DNA from: Escherichia coli 042
Lineage (GTDB): Bacteria; Pseudomonadota; Gammaproteobacteria; Enterobacterales; Enterobacteriaceae
Length of the DNA: 64,000 nt
NCBI RefSeq assembly: GCF_000027125.1
Contig: NC_017626.1
Strand: one strand, 5' to 3'
This document shows, in pieces, positions 24,001 to 36,000 of this stretch; positions within the stretch are counted from its first letter, which is position 1; each line of letters opens with the position of its first letter. A program made the position numbers.

Positions 24001-27000
24001 TCGATCAGACATTTAATGATATGTCAGTGACGTATGGCAATGCTGGCCCGCATGAGTTTGCTGCCATGCTGGAAGCCGCGATGGCGGAAAATCCTCAAGC
24101 CGAAATTTGGGTGAAGGTGCACCCAGATGTACTGGAAGGAAAGAAAACAGGTTATTTCGCCGATCTGCGCGCCACGCAACGAGTACGTTTAATTGCCGAG
24201 AATGTCAGCCCGCAGTCGCTGTTGCGACACGTTTCCCGGGTTTACGTCGTGACCTCCCAGTACGGCTTTGAAGCCTTGCTGGCAGGAAAACCGGTGACAT
24301 GCTTCGGCCAGCCCTGGTATGCAGGCTGGGGCTTAACCGACGATCGCCATCCGCAGTCCGCTTTGTTATCTGCCCGACGCGGTTCTGCCACGCTGGAGGA
24401 ACTTTTTGCCGCTGCATACCTGCGTTACTGTCGCTATATCGATCCGCAAACGGGAGAAGTAAGCGATCTATTTACCGTGCTGCAATGGCTGCAATTACAA
24501 CGTCGACATCTGCAACAGCGTAATGGTTATTTATGGGCGCCAGGCTTAACGCTGTGGAAGTCGGCAATCCTGAAACCTTTCTTGCGTACCGCAACAAACA
24601 GACTGAGTTATTCACGCCGTTGTACTGCGGCGACGGCTTGCGTGGTATGGGGTGTAAAGGGAGAACAGCAATGGCGAGCCGAAGCGCAACAAAAATCACT
24701 GCCGTTATGGCGAATGGAAGATGGTTTTCTGCGTTCATCCGGACTTGGCTCTGACCTGCTGCCGCCGCTATCGTTGGTACTGGATAAACGCGGGATCTAC
24801 TATGACGCCACGCGCCCCAGCGACCTGGAAGTCCTGCTTAATCACAGCCAGTTAACGCTGGCGCAGCAGATGCGAGCTGAAAAATTACGCCAGCGACTGG
24901 TTGAAAGCAAACTGAGCAAATACAACCTAGGGGCCGATTTTTCTCTGCCTGCCGAGGCCAAAGATAAAAAAGTTATCCTGGTGCCGGGTCAGGTAGAAGA
25001 CGATGCCTCGATTAAAACCGGCACAGTCTCGATTAAGAGCAACCTTGAGTTATTACGCACAGTACGCGAGCGTAATCCGCACGCTTACATTATTTATAAA
25101 CCGCACCCGGATGTACTGGTGGGGAATCGCAAGGGCGATATTTCGGCAGAATTGACTGCTGAACTTGCTGACTATCAGGCACTGGACGCAGATATTATTC
25201 AATGCATTCAGCGCGCAGATGAAGTGCACACCATGACATCATTGTCCGGGTTTGAAGCGTTATTACATGGCAAGCAAGTTCATTGTTACGGCCTGCCCTT
25301 CTATGCCGGTTGGGGTTTAACCGTCGATGAACATCACTGCCCGCGCCGCGAACAAAAATTAACGTTAGCAGATTTGATCTATCAGGCGTTGATTGTTTAT
25401 CCAACCTATATCCACCCAACACGGCTACAACCTATTACGGTTGAAGAGGCGGCGGAATATTTGATCCAGACGCCGCGCAAGCCGATGTTTATTACCCGAA
25501 AAAAAGCGGGGCGAGTAATACGCTATTACCGCAAATTAATTATGTTCTGCAAGGTCAGATTTGGCTAAACAATTTCATAGTTGACTATTACGCAAATTAT
25601 TTATGCAAGACAACGCACTAACCATTTTATTATCGGGTAAAAAATATCTGCTATTGCAGGGGCCAATGGGACCCTTTTTCAATGACGTCGCCGAATGGTT
25701 AGAGTCATTAGGCCGTAACGCTGTGAATGTTGTCTTCAACGGCGGGGATCGTTTTTACTGCCGCCATCGACAATACCTGGCTTACTACCAAACGCCGAAA
25801 GAGTTTCCCGGTTGGCTGCGAGATCTCCACCGACAATATGACTTTGATACCATCCTCTGCTTTGGTGACTGCCGCCCATTGCACAAAGAAGCAAAACGCT
25901 GGGCAAAGTCGAAAGGGATCCGCTTTCTGGCATTTGAAGAAGGATATTTACGCCCGCAATTTATAACCGTTGAAGAAGGCGGAGTGAACGCATATTCATC
26001 GCTACCGCGCGACCCGGATTTTTATCGTAAGTTGCCAGATATGCCTGCGCCGCACGTTGAGAACTTAAAACCTTCAACGATGAAACGTATAGGTCATGCG
26101 ATGTGGTATTACCTGATGGGTTGGCATTACCGTCATGAGTTCCCTCGCTACCGCCACCACAAATCATTTTCCCCGTGGTATGAAGCTCGTTGCTGGGTTC
26201 GTGCATACTGGCGCAAGCAACTTTACAAGGTAACACAGCGTAAGGTATTGCCGAGGTTAATGAATGAGCTGGATCAGCGTTATTATCTTGCCGTTTTGCA
26301 GGTGTATAACGATAGCCAGATTCGTAACCACAGCAATTATAACGATGTGCGTGACTATATTAATGAAGTCATGTACTCATTTTCGCGTAAAGCGCCAAAA
26401 GAAAGTTATTTGGTGATCAAACATCATCCGATGGATCGTGGTCACAGACTCTATCGACCATTAATTAAGCGGTTGAGTAAGGAATATGGCTTAGGTGAGC
26501 GCGTCATTTATGTGCACGATCTCCCGATGCCGGAATTATTACGCCACGCAAAAGCGGTGGTGACGATTAACAGTACGGCGGGGATCTCTGCGTTGATTCA
26601 TAATAAACCACTTAAAGTGATGGGCAATGCCCTGTACGACATCAAAGGCTTAACGTATCAAGGGCATTTGCACCAGTTCTGGCAGGCCGATTTTAAACCG
26701 GATATGAAACTGTTTAAGAAGTTTCGGGGGTATTTATTGATGAAGACGCAGGTTAATGCGGTTTATTATGGGGGAGTAAGCATTGGAGAAAAAAATAGGT
26801 ATGAAAGTGATTACTCCTATTATTCAAAGAAACCGCATCATAATGACTAATAATTAGATAATCTACTAATTTTAATCAAAAAAATAATTATGTAAAACTA
26901 ACTATATGGATTAATGTGTTCATTATCTTTAGTTGCTAAAAATTAGCAAGTTATATATTTATTTACACCTATAATTTTCGGGTGATGACATTGCCCAGGT

Positions 27001-33000: not shown

Positions 33001-36000
33001 TTTCTTTGGTACGCGTGTCGAGCACGTTTGGAGTGGGATAATAACTTTCATGTCTAATCCTTTTCGCTTTTTCTATTTAACTCTTAATAAGATTAATAAA
33101 TCTTTATATTCTGTTAATTGGTTATGCCAGATATTTTTAGACGAAGATATTTTGATCTTTTTTATACTCATCCACCCCTTCCTGAACATCCTCATAAAAA
33201 CCAACCGCATTATCGTCTTTAAACACAATCGCCACATCACAAAACTCTTTCAATGAATTCAAACTATGTGAAACCATTAAAAAACTAGATTCTTTATGCC
33301 TTTCTTTAAACAATTGAGCGCATTTTTCTTTAAACCTGGCATCACCGACTGCGGTTACTTCATCGACGATATAATAATCAAACTTAAATGCCATGCTTAA
33401 ACCAAAGCCTAAACGCGATCGCATACCAGATGAGTAAGTTTTAATCGGCATATCGAAGTACTTACCGAGTTCGGCAAATTCTTCGACAAACTCAATTTTC
33501 TCTTTCAGCTCTTCTTGCTTCGCGTATAACCGCGCAACAAATTTTACGTTTTCGCGTCCGGTTAAACTTCCCTGAAATCCACCTGCAAGGCCGACTGGCC
33601 ATGATATCGTTTTATTGGTGATGATCTTTCCACTGTCGGGGCGGTCAATGCCGCCAATCATTCTCAGTAACGTTGATTTACCCGCACCATTACGACCAAT
33701 AAAGGCAACACTTTTTCCTGAAGGAATTTCGAGGTTTAAATCCTTAAACACATAGTGTCGCCCCGTTGGCGTGCGATATGACTTCGTCAAATTCTCAATC
33801 TTAATCATGATGTCAGCATTGCCTCTTCACGCGTTCGGTATAACGCCAGACCGATGAACAGGGTGACCAGAGTGAACATTGCCAGGTAGTTCAGACTCAC
33901 GCCTTCGCTGATATAGCCAGGCATAACTGCCTCGCGGCTTAACTCCACGACATGCACTAATGGGTTCCAGAGTAGATATGACCAGTATTGCTTTGGAATC
34001 GAGTGTAGAGGGAACATGATGCAGGAGATGAAATACAGCGGCTTAAGCAGTATCGGCAGAACCTTTTGCATTTCGGGGAAAGTTTTACCAACGACCATGA
34101 ATATTAAACCGACGCCACATGAAAGAATGATCAGCAGGCTCCAGGTAGCCACAAGTTGTAAAAAATTTGTTATCTCGAAATATTCGCCTGCCATCCAGAC
34201 AATGAGCATAAGCAGAATATAAACAGCAACGTAAATCAGTGTCTCAAGCAGTGCGCGTGCAATGATCGTATCGATGGGTTTTACTGGTCGATAATTAAAC
34301 AGCCCCTGATTCGCTTCAATAGCACCTACAGAACGATTGCTGATACTGCTAAAGATAAAAAAGGGAATCAGGCCATTAAGTAAAAACACCGGGAATGAGA
34401 TGTCTGGCATCGTGCGGTGCATAATGTAACCAAAAATGCCCAACAGTATCAGCAAATGCGCAGAGGGTTCGAGAATCGCCCACAAATATCCCAGACGGAA
34501 CTTACCAAAGCGTGTTCGTATTTCTCGTAGAAATAATGCCTCTACGGTGACTTTCTGGACTTCAAATCCACTTCTTGCCATTTGATGATGTGATCCTAAT
34601 CTCTTCAGGTACGCTACCGCCCTTGGCTTAACAGCTACCAATACACTGGAGGTAATGCTTATTTGTAACTGGATAAAATTTACTCAGACGGTTTGACCTT
34701 TTTAATAGCCGCAAAAAATTTCAGCAGAAATTATTTCCGCAGGGATAAATAGATCTATTTCCGTCTCGTTTCTTCTAATCCATTCTTCAGGCATGAATGT
34801 ATTCGGTCTTCTGGTAATTTCAGAAAACTGGCCGTTTTAGAATGTAGAGTTAATTTCCCAGGAAATTATTTTTTGTTATTACTGTTAACTACTTGATTAT
34901 AATACCCCCATGGATTTTATGCGTAACAATACCTGCAATCTGTTTCAAACCAGAACGCACGCGATTGATTACCAATAAATTGTTCACCGAGAAACTATTT
35001 CCCTATTTAAAATTCACTCGTGTACTTCTTATTTATATCTACAGCCCCCTCTTTACAGTCATATTTGTGATTTATATCACATTTAAATGGTGTTATTTAA
35101 GTCGCATCAATAATCCCGAAGGTAATTATTTTCGTCGATTAAAATATACATCTTGATTATTTTGTGTATTTATTTTAACCAGTGTTACAACCAACACCAT
35201 CCCTCAGTAGATATACCTGAGCAGACATTTCTTAAAATCAACGAATAGTTTCACTGGAAATTATTATGCTTATTTGAAATTCCCTTTCTGATTATCTCCA
35301 GGAATTTTACTAATTTCCAAGCTACACAAAATACAGATCACACAAGAATTATCCTATATGTTTTGGCCTATCAATTGTTACTCAATGATTTATTGCAACT
35401 ATTAATAATCATAATGTGTCAAAACACTTAAGCAACTTTACAGTCTGAGAAAGGTGTCGATTAACGAAGGCTACATGGTGAAAAACAGGTTCCTTCAGTG
35501 TTACCGAATATTCCGTGGTGGTCTGGAGGGAGATAATTCTTGCTACATCGAAACTCAGCCCGGTGAGCGGGTTTGACAGTTCCGCACTCACCATTGGGCT
35601 AAGGGTTATCAGGTGGGGTTAAGGAAATGGCAATACCTACCCCCGTCCAAATTCCAGTCGCTGCACATTCACCATCCCAGGCTTCTCACCCGCACTGACA
35701 TCAATTTGTGTCACCCGCAGCGCATATTTTTCATCCAGTGCTTTTAACCAGTTCAGCAGGTCATTAAACACCACCGGATCTATCCAGACTTGAATATTCT
35801 CCCCACGCTCGGCTATCCGCTTGATGACCACCGAGTGCGCGGAAGCACTGTCACTGATGACCCGCGATACCTGCGCAGGCGTTGTTGTGGCAGATTTTCG
35901 CGCTGCAATAATATCCGGCGCGGCGTTCTTCAGTCGGGTGTTCATCGCCACCAGCTGCTGCAACATCGTCTCCTGTTGTTCTATCCGTTCGCTCAACGGC

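What the first reader, a model, noticed from the sequence alone, without database searches (positions are those of the whole stretch)
26959..33051. Serotype-specific capsule region 2 is not K1 or K5: three AT-rich genes suggest a Kdo-containing, O-acetylated polymer
Regions 1 and 3 of the kps locus are standard, but region 2 lacks neu or kfi genes. It encodes a second CMP-sugar cytidylyltransferase (KdsB/NeuA superfamily) in addition to kpsU, one 1112 aa multidomain protein with HAD phosphatase motifs, and an acyltransferase fusion. From known biology, extra cytidylyltransferase paralogues occur in Kdo-containing capsules, and HAD phosphatase domains occur in polymerases that add pentose via phosphoribosyl donors. 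That would fit a Kdo-pentose O-acetylated K antigen, but the exact K type cannot be read from sequence by eye.
Basis: partly seen in the sequence, partly recalled or inferred. Interest (0 to 1): 0.65.

Follow-up and report, generated by a model that had tools for sequence, protein, structure and literature searches.

The report
E. coli K74 capsule gene cassette
These three genes are the serotype-specific core of the already catalogued E. coli K74 capsule locus (the one in enteroaggregative strain 042), which builds an O-acetylated ribose-Kdo polymer; the only open point is why it carries its own sialic-acid-type cytidylyltransferase, which may explain how the rare furanose form of Kdo is made.

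Summary
Three co-oriented, AT-rich (25-34% GC) minus-strand genes lie between kpsFEDUCS and kpsMT at exactly the stated coordinates.

The acetyltransferase and cytidylyltransferase are MD5-identical to ORFs 'K130_7' and 'K130_9' of the kTYPr catalogue. 'K130' appears to be the provisional name of the type finally called K74. The three identities to the K109 locus reproduce the published K74-K109 values. The polymerase and cytidylyltransferase are exactly CBG36066/CBG36067 of EAEC 042 (O44:H18); the K74 type strain is O44:K74:H18. The published K74 repeat is ->3)-b-Ribf-(1->2)-b-Ribf-(1->6)-b-Kdof-(2->.

The 1112-aa protein has three modules:
- a HAD phosphatase;
- a PRPP-dependent ribosyltransferase, with all four Bcs3 catalytic residues conserved.

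So the locus is already known. One part is not explained in the literature I read. The extra NeuA-like cytidylyltransferase occurs only in the K74/K95/K109/K135 set, and K74 and K95 are the two K antigens reported with furanosidic Kdo. Its partner transferase lacks the QxxxD aspartate nucleophile. A dedicated CMP-Kdo-furanose pathway is plausible but untested.

The parts
32356..33051 (-). Region-2 cytidylyltransferase (231 aa), NeuA/PseF-like; identical to Ec042-3238 / CBG36067.1 and to kTYPr ORF K130_9.
   Evidence: Pfam CTP_transf_3. PseF model E 2.6e-12, far below its cut-off; KdsB models E about 0.008. The family profile hits N. meningitidis NeuA 1eyr at E 1e-12 and KdsB 3duv at E 0.007. 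The MD5 equals that of K130_9. Exact accession.
30775..32118 (-). Polymerase N-terminal domain (aa 1-448): modified GT-B fold of the beta-Kdo transferase superfamily. The canonical QxxxD aspartate is absent. Predicted to be the Kdo(f) transferase.
30169..30774 (-). Polymerase HAD phosphatase module (aa 449-650), like Bcs3 CrpP; predicted to remove the 5-phosphate from newly added ribose-5-P.
   Evidence: Alignment to Bcs3. GFDIFDTLL is invariant in 23 homologues; D453 corresponds to Bcs3 D386. Weak HAD Pfam/NCBIfam hits.
29044..30168 (-). Polymerase PRPP-dependent ribose-5-phosphate transferase module (aa 651-1025), like Bcs3 CriT.
   Evidence: Alignment to Bcs3 continues through chain residue 958. 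D736, D873 and E932 are invariant and align with Bcs3 D680, E818 and E874.
28780..29043 (-). Polymerase C-terminal tail (aa 1026-1112) plus stop codon: a low-complexity, lysine-rich stretch and a basic end; role inferred only (membrane or complex association).
   Evidence: Sequence. This is the least conserved part between K types, 60-78% identity. Not tested further.
26959..28551 (-). Putative O-acetyltransferase fusion (530 aa): WcbI domain (aa 4-218) plus left-handed beta-helix acetyltransferase (aa about 398-515). Identical to kTYPr ORF K130_7; corresponds to Ec042-3236.
   Evidence: Pfam WcbI E 1.7e-31 and Hexapep. WbbJ, maltose and WcaF O-acetyltransferase models match aa 402-515. The MD5 equals that of K130_7.
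33137..34581 (-). kps region 3: kpsT (33137-33808) and kpsM (33805-34581), the ABC exporter. Region 2 lies directly downstream on the same strand.
   Evidence: Annotation of the identical locus. NCBIfam KpsM and ABC ATPase models.
34614..34621 (-). ops element GGCGGTAG, 33 nt upstream of the kpsM start codon; the RfaH loading site that permits read-through into region 2.
   Evidence: Pattern match. The same element is described for the EAEC 042 locus in PMC2808357.
18891..26850 (+). kps region 1: kpsF, kpsE, kpsD, kpsU (CMP-Kdo synthetase), kpsC and kpsS.
   Evidence: ORFs. Annotation of the 100%-identical AF40 locus. KpsF model. QxxxD and HP motifs present in KpsC and KpsS.

Best explanation
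This is region 2 of a group 2 (ABC-transporter-dependent) kps locus of the K74 genotype. It is the same cassette as Ec042-3236/3237/3238 of enteroaggregative E. coli 042.

Proposed mechanism:
- The cassette is transcribed by RfaH-dependent read-through from the kpsM promoter (inferred from gene order and the ops site).
- The 1112-aa protein is the capsule polymerase. Its N-terminal domain has the Kdo-transferase fold and adds Kdo from a CMP-activated donor to O-3 of ribose.
- Its CriT-like module transfers ribose-5-phosphate from PRPP, and its HAD module removes the 5-phosphate.
- Because the K74 repeat has two riboses, the single CriT module would have to act on both Kdo and ribose acceptors (inferred).
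- The 530-aa WcbI + hexapeptide fusion O-acetylates the polymer (inferred).
- The 231-aa NeuA-like enzyme makes the CMP-activated Kdo donor used by the polymerase (inferred from conserved gene linkage). The ring form of that donor is unknown.

The product is the acidic Ribf-Ribf-Kdof K74 polysaccharide. It is exported by KpsMTED on the KpsS/KpsC-built poly-Kdo lipid anchor.
For: Identity of the locus:
- The acetyltransferase and cytidylyltransferase MD5 values equal kTYPr K130_7 and K130_9 (compared).
- K130 is missing from the final K-type table and from the Fig. 2 identity file, whereas K74 there has a RefSeq-derived reference.
- The strain DLI.6n locus is MD5-identical to K109_7/8/9.
- Window-versus-K109 identities are 945/1113 for the polymerase (950/1114, i.e. 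85.28%, once the six-residue N-terminal extension MQILYY confirmed is counted by hand), 514/530 and 226/231. The published K74-K109 values are 85.278, 96.987 and 97.845.
- The exact polymerase and cytidylyltransferase are CBG36066.1 and CBG36067.1, on a contig of 5,241,977 bp, which I recognise as EAEC 042, O44:H18. The K74 type strain is O44:K74:H18.

Chemistry: the K74 structure and the furanosidic form of its Kdo are given.

Polymerase modules:
- Bcs3 alignment at E 4e-18, with D453, D736, D873 and E932 matching the Bcs3 residues D386, D680, E818 and E874 that were shown or proposed to be catalytic.
- The N-domain fold matches WbbB, KpsC and KrkA far above generic GT-B folds.
- Miravet-Verde et al. 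describe the same three-domain ORF for the K13-to-K19 set.
- KrkA of K13 was shown biochemically to perform both Kdo and ribose transfer.

Acetyltransferase.

Linkage:
- The same CT-polymerase-WcbI cassette occurs in Avibacterium and in Desulfovibrio.
- A split version (CT + Capsule_synth GT + HAD-CriT) occurs in Aeromonas and Enterovibrio, next to kdsA and kpsF.

Transcription: ops element.
Against: - The polymerase is not MD5-identical to the catalogue ORF of the same length, so at least one substitution exists.
- That K130 was renamed K74 is inferred, not stated in the paper.
- The K74 genotype-phenotype link in kTYPr comes from a public genome. It was not among the polysaccharides they re-analysed by mass spectrometry.
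- The Kaptive database lists what is probably the same locus (KL113, matched only by gene lengths) as phenotype unknown.
- No capsule has been demonstrated for strain 042.
- No activity of any of the three proteins has been measured.
- The N-domain lacks the nucleophile that defines the characterised Kdo transferases, so its donor and stereochemistry are not established.
Confidence: 0.85

Rival explanations
1. The extra cytidylyltransferase is a dedicated CMP-Kdo-furanose synthetase. It picks a furanose anomer of free Kdo. The nucleophile-less GT99-like domain then transfers it in a single displacement. On this reading the gene pair is what makes the Kdo of K74/K95 furanosidic.
For: - The gene is confined to the K74/K95/K109/K135 set: 13 of 5426 genomes, all of the three locus variants characterised (three representatives fetched), identified as the K74, K95-like and K109 types (K135).
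- K74 and K95 are the only K antigens described with Kdof.
- The Kdop-ribose loci K13 and K104 have an analogous polymerase but no such gene.
- It is retained beside a bona fide KdsB-type gene in E. coli (kpsU), Aeromonas and Desulfovibrio, so it is unlikely to be redundant.
- It lies beside kdsA/kpsF rather than neuB in close homologues.
- The partner GT has G-N-F-P-S where KpsC, KpsS, KrkA and K104 have Q-x-x-x-D, with the same 34-residue spacing to the conserved His. It keeps a Y-W-E that resembles KrkA's YE base motif.
Against: - The case is purely correlative: two structures from the 1980s.
- No CMP-Kdof has ever been described, as far as the papers searched show.
- Homologues of 55-57% identity are paired with WaaZ-like genes in LPS core loci, where furanosidic Kdo is not expected.
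- Another invariant acidic residue (for example D213, E142 or D157) could replace the missing nucleophile. I could not inspect model coordinates to check.
Confidence: 0.3
2. The extra cytidylyltransferase makes ordinary CMP-beta-Kdo-pyranose as a private or boosted supply for a Kdo-rich polymer. The ring form is set by the polymerase or was mis-assigned in the old structures.
For: - Association with kdsA and kpsF in Aeromonas, Enterovibrio and Vibrio loci points to Kdo as the substrate.
- The Enterovibrio and V. vulnificus loci show no KdsB-type gene within the stretch read.
Against: - It is barely related to KdsB (E 0.007, against 1e-12 for NeuA).
- Three loci keep both enzymes.
- Other capsules with stoichiometric Kdo (K13, K104) manage without it.
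Confidence: 0.3
3. The enzyme activates a nine-carbon sialic-acid-like sugar, as suggested in the 2010 EAEC 042 genome paper, so the polymer contains a nonulosonic acid.
For: - Its closest solved relatives are CMP-Neu5Ac synthetases.
- The 2010 annotation proposed this.
- A 37%-identical homologue sits next to a NeuB-family synthase.
Against: - There is no neuB, neuC, pse or leg synthase gene in region 2, or in the Avibacterium, Desulfovibrio, Aeromonas and Enterovibrio cassettes.
- The partner transferase has the Kdo-transferase fold.
- The K74 composition is ribose and Kdo only.
Confidence: 0.04
4. The locus makes a ribose / ribitol-phosphate polymer of the Hib / K18 / K100 kind.
For: The CrpP-CriT homology to Bcs3.
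Against: - There is no CDP-ribitol synthase (reductase) gene, and no significant sequence match to a TagF-family domain.
- The K100-type loci carry a bifunctional reductase/cytidylyltransferase gene that is absent here.
Confidence: 0.01

Closest known systems
E. coli K74, K95, K109 and K135 kps loci as catalogued by kTYPr (Miravet-Verde et al. 2026, PMC13171606); probably KL113 of the Kaptive G2/G3 database (Gladstone et al. 2026, PMC13171598); Ec042-3236..3238 of EAEC 042 (Chaudhuri et al. 2010, PMC2808357)
   Same: Same three genes in the same order. The acetyltransferase and cytidylyltransferase are identical by MD5 to the catalogue ORFs. The polymerase and cytidylyltransferase are identical to the 042 proteins.
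   Different: Nothing of substance. The polymerase differs from the catalogue representative by at least one residue. Compared with K95-like and K109 loci the polymerase is a mosaic.
KrkA, the K13/K20/K23 capsule polymerase (GT140 Kdo transferase fused to a ribosyltransferase; PDB 9YFX-9YFZ; PMC12887879)
   Different: - No sequence similarity in the N-domain.
- KrkA has YE, QxxxD (D193) and HP motifs. The window protein has YWE, GNFPS and H(S).
- KrkA makes beta-Kdop; K74 has Kdof.
- The K13 locus has no extra cytidylyltransferase.
Haemophilus influenzae type b Bcs3 (CroT-CrpP-CriT; PDB 8A0C; PMC10299916)
   Same: The CrpP (HAD) and CriT (PRPP-dependent ribose-5-P transferase) modules are homologous (E 4e-18), in the same order and with their catalytic residues conserved.
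   Different: The N-terminal module of Bcs3 is a TagF-like ribitol-phosphate transferase that uses CDP-ribitol. Here it is a Kdo-transferase-fold domain. No SH3b domain was detected here (not specifically tested).
WbbB GT99 and KpsC/KpsS GT107 retaining beta-Kdo transferases
   Different: The Gln and the nucleophilic Asp of the QxxxD motif are absent in all 23 family members aligned.
CMP-Neu5Ac synthetase NeuA (PDB 1EYR), PseF and KdsB/KpsU
   Same: Same nucleotidyltransferase fold family. Conserved P-loop (S11, R13, K17, N18), a QVTSPLF motif (corresponding to NeuA's QPTSPL) and a DIDT motif.
   Different: - Scores are far below the family cut-offs.
- There are no sialic-acid synthesis genes nearby.
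- It is only marginally related to KdsB (E 0.007).
- Its substrate is unknown.

Membership tests
Group 2 kps capsule locus | Conserved region 1 (kpsFEDUCS) and region 3 (kpsMT) flanking a variable, low-GC region 2, next to the yghD/gsp genes | tested here: met
Group 2 kps capsule locus | ops/JUMPStart element just upstream of kpsM, with region 2 downstream on the same strand | tested here: met
   GGCGGTAG at 34614-34621 (-), 33 nt upstream of the kpsM ATG. All region 2 genes are on the minus strand. RfaH dependence itself was not tested.
K74 genotype (kTYPr) | Region 2 proteins identical or near-identical to the K74 reference ORFs | tested here: met
   Acetyltransferase and cytidylyltransferase MD5 values equal K130_7/K130_9. 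The identity triplet to K109 reproduces the published K74-K109 values. K130 is absent from the final table. That K130 equals K74 is inferred.
K74 serotype (phenotype) | Polymer ->3)-b-Ribf-(1->2)-b-Ribf-(1->6)-b-Kdof-(2->; reaction with K74 antiserum | not testable with these tools
   Structure taken from the literature. An O44:H18 strain (042) carries the exact proteins.
Dual-module polysaccharide ribofuranosyltransferase (CriT + CrpP) | HAD phosphatase with the nucleophilic Asp (Bcs3 D386) | tested here: met
   D453 in the invariant GFDIFDTLL.
Dual-module polysaccharide ribofuranosyltransferase (CriT + CrpP) | CriT catalytic acids (Bcs3 D680 and E818, and the proposed base E874) | tested here: met
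   D736, D873 and E932 align with them and are invariant in 23 homologues.
Dual-module polysaccharide ribofuranosyltransferase (CriT + CrpP) | Uses PRPP as donor and then removes the 5-phosphate | not testable with these tools
   Inferred from homology only.
Retaining beta-Kdo transferases (GT99 / GT107 / GT140) | Modified GT-B fold with a helical subdomain | tested here: met
Retaining beta-Kdo transferases (GT99 / GT107 / GT140) | QxxxD motif with the nucleophilic Asp after the first strand of the C-terminal Rossmann domain | tested here: not met
   The window has Y-P-G-N-F-P-S-L-R there. S230 lies 34 residues before H264, the same spacing as D160-H194 in KpsC and D201-H235 in K104. No acidic residue occurs at this site in 21 of 23 homologues.
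Retaining beta-Kdo transferases (GT99 / GT107 / GT140) | HP motif that binds CMP | tested here: inconclusive
   H264 is invariant. The following residue is S/H/A/Q/N/R, and Pro in only 3 of 23.
Retaining beta-Kdo transferases (GT99 / GT107 / GT140) | General-base Glu (YE motif in KrkA) | tested here: inconclusive
   Y123-W124-E125 is invariant at the end of a strand, resembling GYE in K104/KrkA. Structural equivalence was not verified.
GT140 (KrkA family) | Detectable sequence homology to the KrkA N-domain | tested here: not met
   No PDB sequence hit at E up to 10 with either the single sequence or the family profile, although KrkA is in the database. hhalign to the K104 N-domain gives probability 0.2.
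CMP-Kdo synthetase (KdsB/KpsU) | Match to KdsB models above cut-off | tested here: not met
   15 bits against cut-offs of 193-255. Profile E 0.007 to KdsB structures.
CMP-sialic/pseudaminic acid synthetase (NeuA/PseF) | Match above cut-off and co-located nonulosonic acid synthase genes | tested here: not met
   PseF model scores 46.9 bits against a cut-off of 205.7. No NeuB-family gene in this or the closely related loci.
Polysaccharide O-acetyltransferase (hexapeptide / LbH) with WcbI domain | WcbI domain and hexapeptide-repeat domain present | tested here: met
   Acetyl transfer and its site were not tested.

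The most novel reading that the evidence does not exclude
The NeuA-like cytidylyltransferase of this cassette synthesises a nucleotide sugar not described in the literature I searched: CMP-Kdo in furanose form. The GT99-like polymerase domain has lost the aspartate nucleophile of all characterised beta-Kdo transferases and transfers this donor by direct displacement. 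Together they would be the biosynthetic origin of furanosidic Kdo in the K74/K95 capsules, and of related cassettes in Pasteurellaceae, Aeromonas, vibrios and Desulfovibrio.
Probability: 0.3. Interest if true: 0.7.

Novelty: already known. Interest (0 to 1): 0.35.

Why it matters
As a finding it mainly confirms existing knowledge:
- The locus was noted in the EAEC 042 genome in 2010.
- Two E. coli K-typing databases published in 2026 include it.
- Its polymer chemistry was solved in 1988.

Two practical points follow.
- Strain 042, the prototype enteroaggregative E. coli, is stated to have no described capsule. It carries what now types as an intact K74 locus.
- The cassette offers a small, tractable system of two or three genes for asking how bacteria make furanosidic Kdo. 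No donor or enzyme for this is reported in the literature I could search.

If the dedicated cytidylyltransferase makes a distinct CMP-Kdo species, that would add a new nucleotide sugar. It would also add a new mechanistic branch to the Kdo-transferase superfamily, and help glyco-engineering of Kdo-ribose capsule antigens.

Tried and rejected
1. Sequence search of the N-terminal 449 aa, and of its family profile, against PDB sequences gave nothing meaningful. The only matches were antibody light chains at E > 0.2. The fold had to be predicted instead.
2. Pfam and NCBIfam on the 1112-aa protein gave only weak HAD hits.
3. The hit accessions and 'WcbI' were not found in the Gladstone supplements. 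The KL113 assignment rests on matching gene lengths (3339/1593/696 nt) in one column of a tab-separated table, so it is only probable.
4. I looked for the K74 reference genome (GCA_900636275) among the contigs that encode the exact protein. It was not among the places shown, so the link to K74 rests on the MD5 and identity fingerprints and on the O44:H18 strain.
5. Literature searches for Kdo-furanose biosynthesis found no relevant paper.
6. Is the V. vulnificus 399-aa neighbour of the cytidylyltransferase homologous to the N-domain? Not significantly.
7. P0106 (Helicobacter) had no contig on record.
8. Ribitol-phosphate and sialic-acid readings were considered and rejected (see the rival explanations).
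9. I could not obtain model coordinates. Which residue occupies the WbbB D232/E158 positions in three dimensions therefore remains unresolved.
10. The promoter/terminator scan of the region gave fewer hits than shuffled controls and was not used.

Full report
**Observation**

The window holds three co-oriented minus-strand ORFs at exactly the coordinates given:
- 26959-28551, 530 aa;
- 28780-32118, 1112 aa;
- 32356-33051, 231 aa.

GC content falls to 0.25-0.34 over 27.0-33.5 kb, against about 0.45-0.54 in the adjoining kps region 1. On one side lie kpsF, E, D, U, C and S (18891-26850, + strand). On the other lie kpsT and kpsM (33137-34581, - strand), followed by yghD/gsp genes. The ops element GGCGGTAG sits 33 nt upstream of the kpsM start codon. 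Region 2 therefore lies downstream of kpsMT on the same strand, as in other group 2 loci. No neu or kfi genes are present.

**Which locus it is**

The 6.3-kb stretch occurs in only 13 of 5426 complete E. coli genomes, in three sequence variants: at least 99%, about 90% and about 88% identity. Two capsule-typing papers from 2026 cover it.

In the Kaptive G2/G3 database, genes of 3339, 1593 and 696 nt co-occur in KL113, whose phenotype is listed as unknown. This match is by gene length only.

The kTYPr paper prints InterProScan MD5 checksums for its ORFs. The window's acetyltransferase and cytidylyltransferase have the MD5 values of 'K130_7' and 'K130_9' (compared). The 90% variant, from strain DLI.6n, matches K109_7/8/9 exactly.

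K130 is absent from the final K-type table and from the Fig. 2 identity file. K74 is listed there with a RefSeq-derived reference.

The window-to-K109 identities are:
- polymerase 945/1113, which becomes 950/1114 (85.28%) once the six-residue N-terminal extension confirmed is counted by hand;
- acetyltransferase 514/530;
- cytidylyltransferase 226/231.

These reproduce the published K74-K109 values of 85.278, 96.987 and 97.845%. I conclude that K130 was the provisional name of K74, and that the window carries the K74 genotype. The 88% variant (strain 1105) behaves as K95: it is 78.2% identical to K109, against 78.6% published.

Independently, the exact polymerase and cytidylyltransferase are CBG36066.1 and CBG36067.1, on a contig of 5,241,977 bp. 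I recognise these as belonging to enteroaggregative E. coli 042 (O44:H18); the accession-to-strain link is from my own knowledge. The K74 type strain is O44:K74:H18.

The 042 genome paper of 2010 already described this region 2 as Ec042-3236/3237/3238. It guessed that a nine-carbon sugar was activated, and noted that no capsule had been described for the strain.

**Chemistry**

K74 is given as ->3)-b-D-Ribf-(1->2)-b-D-Ribf-(1->6)-b-Kdo-(2->, from a paper whose title speaks of furanosidic beta-KDO residues. Two other papers state that K74 and K95 are the E. coli K antigens with beta-furanosidic Kdo.

**The polymerase**

Residues 451-1022 align with Hib Bcs3 at E 4e-18. The aligned region is the CrpP phosphatase (Bcs3 374-591) and the CriT ribose-5-phosphate transferase (592-1036). 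Reading the alignment with the chain numbering offset by one:
- Bcs3 D386 corresponds to D453;
- D680 to D736;
- E818 to D873;
- the proposed base E874 to E932.

All four are invariant in 23 homologues that go down to 38% identity.

Profile comparison links the domain to a 406-aa Pfam Capsule_synth protein of Aeromonas (probability 98.9). It links more weakly to E. coli KpsC (probability 82).

This is the three-domain architecture that Miravet-Verde et al. describe for the large ORFs of the Ribf-Kdo set. It was shown biochemically for KrkA of K13.

**A difference from the characterised Kdo transferases**

KpsC (both modules), KpsS, the KrkA-like K104 polymerase and KrkA itself all show Q-x-x-x-D after the first strand of the C-terminal Rossmann domain. 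An H-P motif follows 34-38 residues later.

In the window protein the corresponding stretch is Y-P-G-N-F-P-S-L-R-F. S230 lies 34 residues before the invariant H264. No acidic residue occurs there in 21 of 23 homologues. A Y-W-E (E125) at the end of a strand is invariant and resembles the YE general-base motif of KrkA.

The fold criterion for the retaining Kdo-transferase families is thus met. The defining nucleophile is not present at its canonical place. I could not inspect coordinates to see whether another invariant acid (D213, E142, E152 or D157) takes over.

**The cytidylyltransferase**

It is a distant member of the NeuA/PseF branch. The family profile gives E 1e-12 to N. meningitidis NeuA and E 0.007 to KdsB. 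All NCBIfam scores are far below their cut-offs.

With blastn at low stringency the gene is found only in the same 13 complete genomes. K13 and K104 have analogous polymerases but no such gene.

Outside E. coli the gene travels with its partner in several arrangements:
- Avibacterium sp. and Desulfovibrio sp. An276 carry the same CT-polymerase-WcbI cassette inside ABC-type capsule loci. Desulfovibrio carries it beside kdsA and a kdsB-kdsC fusion.
- Aeromonas veronii and Enterovibrio norvegicus carry a split version: CT, a Capsule_synth-type GT, a HAD-CriT protein, a second CriT-only protein and an acetyltransferase. This lies beside kpsF and kdsA, and in Aeromonas also beside a KdsB-type gene.
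- A V. vulnificus Wzy-type locus has the gene together with kpsF and kdsA.
- Homologues of 55-57% identity are coupled to WaaZ(KdoIII)-like genes in LPS core loci.
- A 37% homologue lies between waaA and a NeuB-family gene.

No close homologue sits next to a sialic-acid synthase gene. The most economical reading is that the substrate is Kdo, or something made from it. The enzyme is probably not redundant with KdsB/KpsU, because three loci keep both.

**The acetyltransferase**

It is a WcbI domain (E 1.7e-31) fused to a hexapeptide-repeat O-acetyltransferase domain. K135 lacks this gene, which would predict a non-acetylated relative.

**Proposed mechanism**

*Shown here:*
- the identity of the locus;
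- the domain content;
- conservation of the CrpP and CriT catalytic residues;
- the Kdo-transferase fold;
- the conserved gene linkage.

*Inferred:*
- RfaH-dependent read-through expression.
- The N-domain adds Kdo to O-3 of ribose.
- CriT adds ribose-5-P from PRPP to Kdo O-6 and then to ribose O-2.
- The HAD module removes each 5-phosphate.
- The fusion protein O-acetylates the polymer.
- KpsMTED export it on the KpsS/KpsC-made anchor.

The domain-wise mosaic fits this division of labour. K74 and K95 share the Kdo-(2->3)-Rib linkage, and their N-domains are 91% identical. Their ribose linkages differ, and the HAD and CriT modules are only 76-79% identical. K74 and K109 show the reverse pattern. 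(The K95 linkage is from my own memory of Dengler et al. 1985, not from a text read here.)

**The open question**

Why does this set have its own NeuA-like cytidylyltransferase and a nucleophile-less transferase? Three features coincide in the K74/K95 group and are absent from the pyranosidic Kdo-ribose types: furanosidic Kdo, the extra gene, and the missing aspartate.

This suggests a dedicated CMP-Kdo-furanose donor transferred by direct displacement. Free Kdo equilibrates between pyranose and furanose forms (my own knowledge), so selection of one anomer by a cytidylyltransferase is chemically simple.

The case rests on only two old structures and on correlation, and the WaaZ-linked homologues do not obviously fit. 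I give it about 0.3. The alternative, an ordinary CMP-Kdo supply, gets about the same.

**Verdict**

Novelty: already known. Interest is modest. It comes from the untested cytidylyltransferase/transferase pair, and from the fact that the prototype EAEC strain carries an intact K74 locus.

Noticed in passing
window 28780-32118 compared with L008 3444-6782 and L009 3365-6706: The polymerases of the K74, K95-like and K109 loci are domain mosaics. K74 versus K95-like: N-domain 91%, HAD 76%, CriT 79%. K74 versus K109: N-domain 81%, HAD 91%, CriT 90%. The flanking acetyltransferase and cytidylyltransferase stay at 97-98%. This suggests recombination inside the gene creates new K types.
   Followed up: partly
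L018 8307-13921 (Avibacterium sp. 21-599); L019 8333-14001 (Desulfovibrio sp. An276): The same three-gene cassette (cytidylyltransferase, ~1100-aa polymerase, 531-aa WcbI acetyltransferase) sits in the same order in ABC-type capsule loci of a Pasteurellaceae and a Desulfovibrio. Together with the 28% GC in E. coli this points to horizontal acquisition of the whole module.
   Followed up: partly
L012 9048-10663; L013 8046-9669; L014 3074-4697: Homologues of the cytidylyltransferase (55-57% identical) are directly coupled to WaaZ_KDO_III-family genes inside LPS inner-core loci of Pseudothauera rhizosphaerae and of metagenomic contigs. They lie next to heptosyltransferase, Kdo-kinase-family and EptB-like genes. 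What ulosonic acid this pair adds is unknown.
   Followed up: no
L002 10001-15893; L015 9001-15042: Aeromonas veronii and Enterovibrio norvegicus encode a split version of the system. It includes an extra CriT-only paralogue (367/387 aa) without a HAD domain, which may add a second ribose per repeat.
   Followed up: partly
L016 7715-11339: A 37%-identical cytidylyltransferase lies between a WaaA-type Kdo transferase gene and a NeuB-family synthase plus a HAD phosphatase on a metagenomic contig. This may be a Kdn-like or other ulosonic acid added to lipid A-core.
   Followed up: no
window about 12600-18105, compared with L020: Upstream of kpsF the window differs from the otherwise identical AF40 locus. 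AF40 has an IS66-family element (ISEc22) there. The window instead has an 89-91% identical, differently arranged prophage-remnant segment (RadC-like and related genes). The window is therefore not from AF40.
   Followed up: partly
window 31108-31110 (polymerase residue 337): The window polymerase has Gly337, where the 90%-cluster representative P0001 has Val. It is also not MD5-identical to the kTYPr catalogue ORF of the same length. Small allelic variation therefore exists within the K74 polymerase.
   Followed up: no
window 26148-26155 (-): A second GGCGGTAG (ops-like) octamer lies inside kpsS on the opposite strand. Two matches in 64 kb are within chance expectation (31 of 100 shuffles), so it is probably meaningless.
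   Followed up: no
L010 10001-11906 (Vibrio vulnificus): In a Wza/Wzc-type capsule locus the cytidylyltransferase overlaps the end of rmlC. It is followed by a 399-aa protein with a KLHP motif but no Pfam hit and no detectable similarity to the E. coli N-domain. kpsF-like and kdsA genes close the locus.
   Followed up: partly
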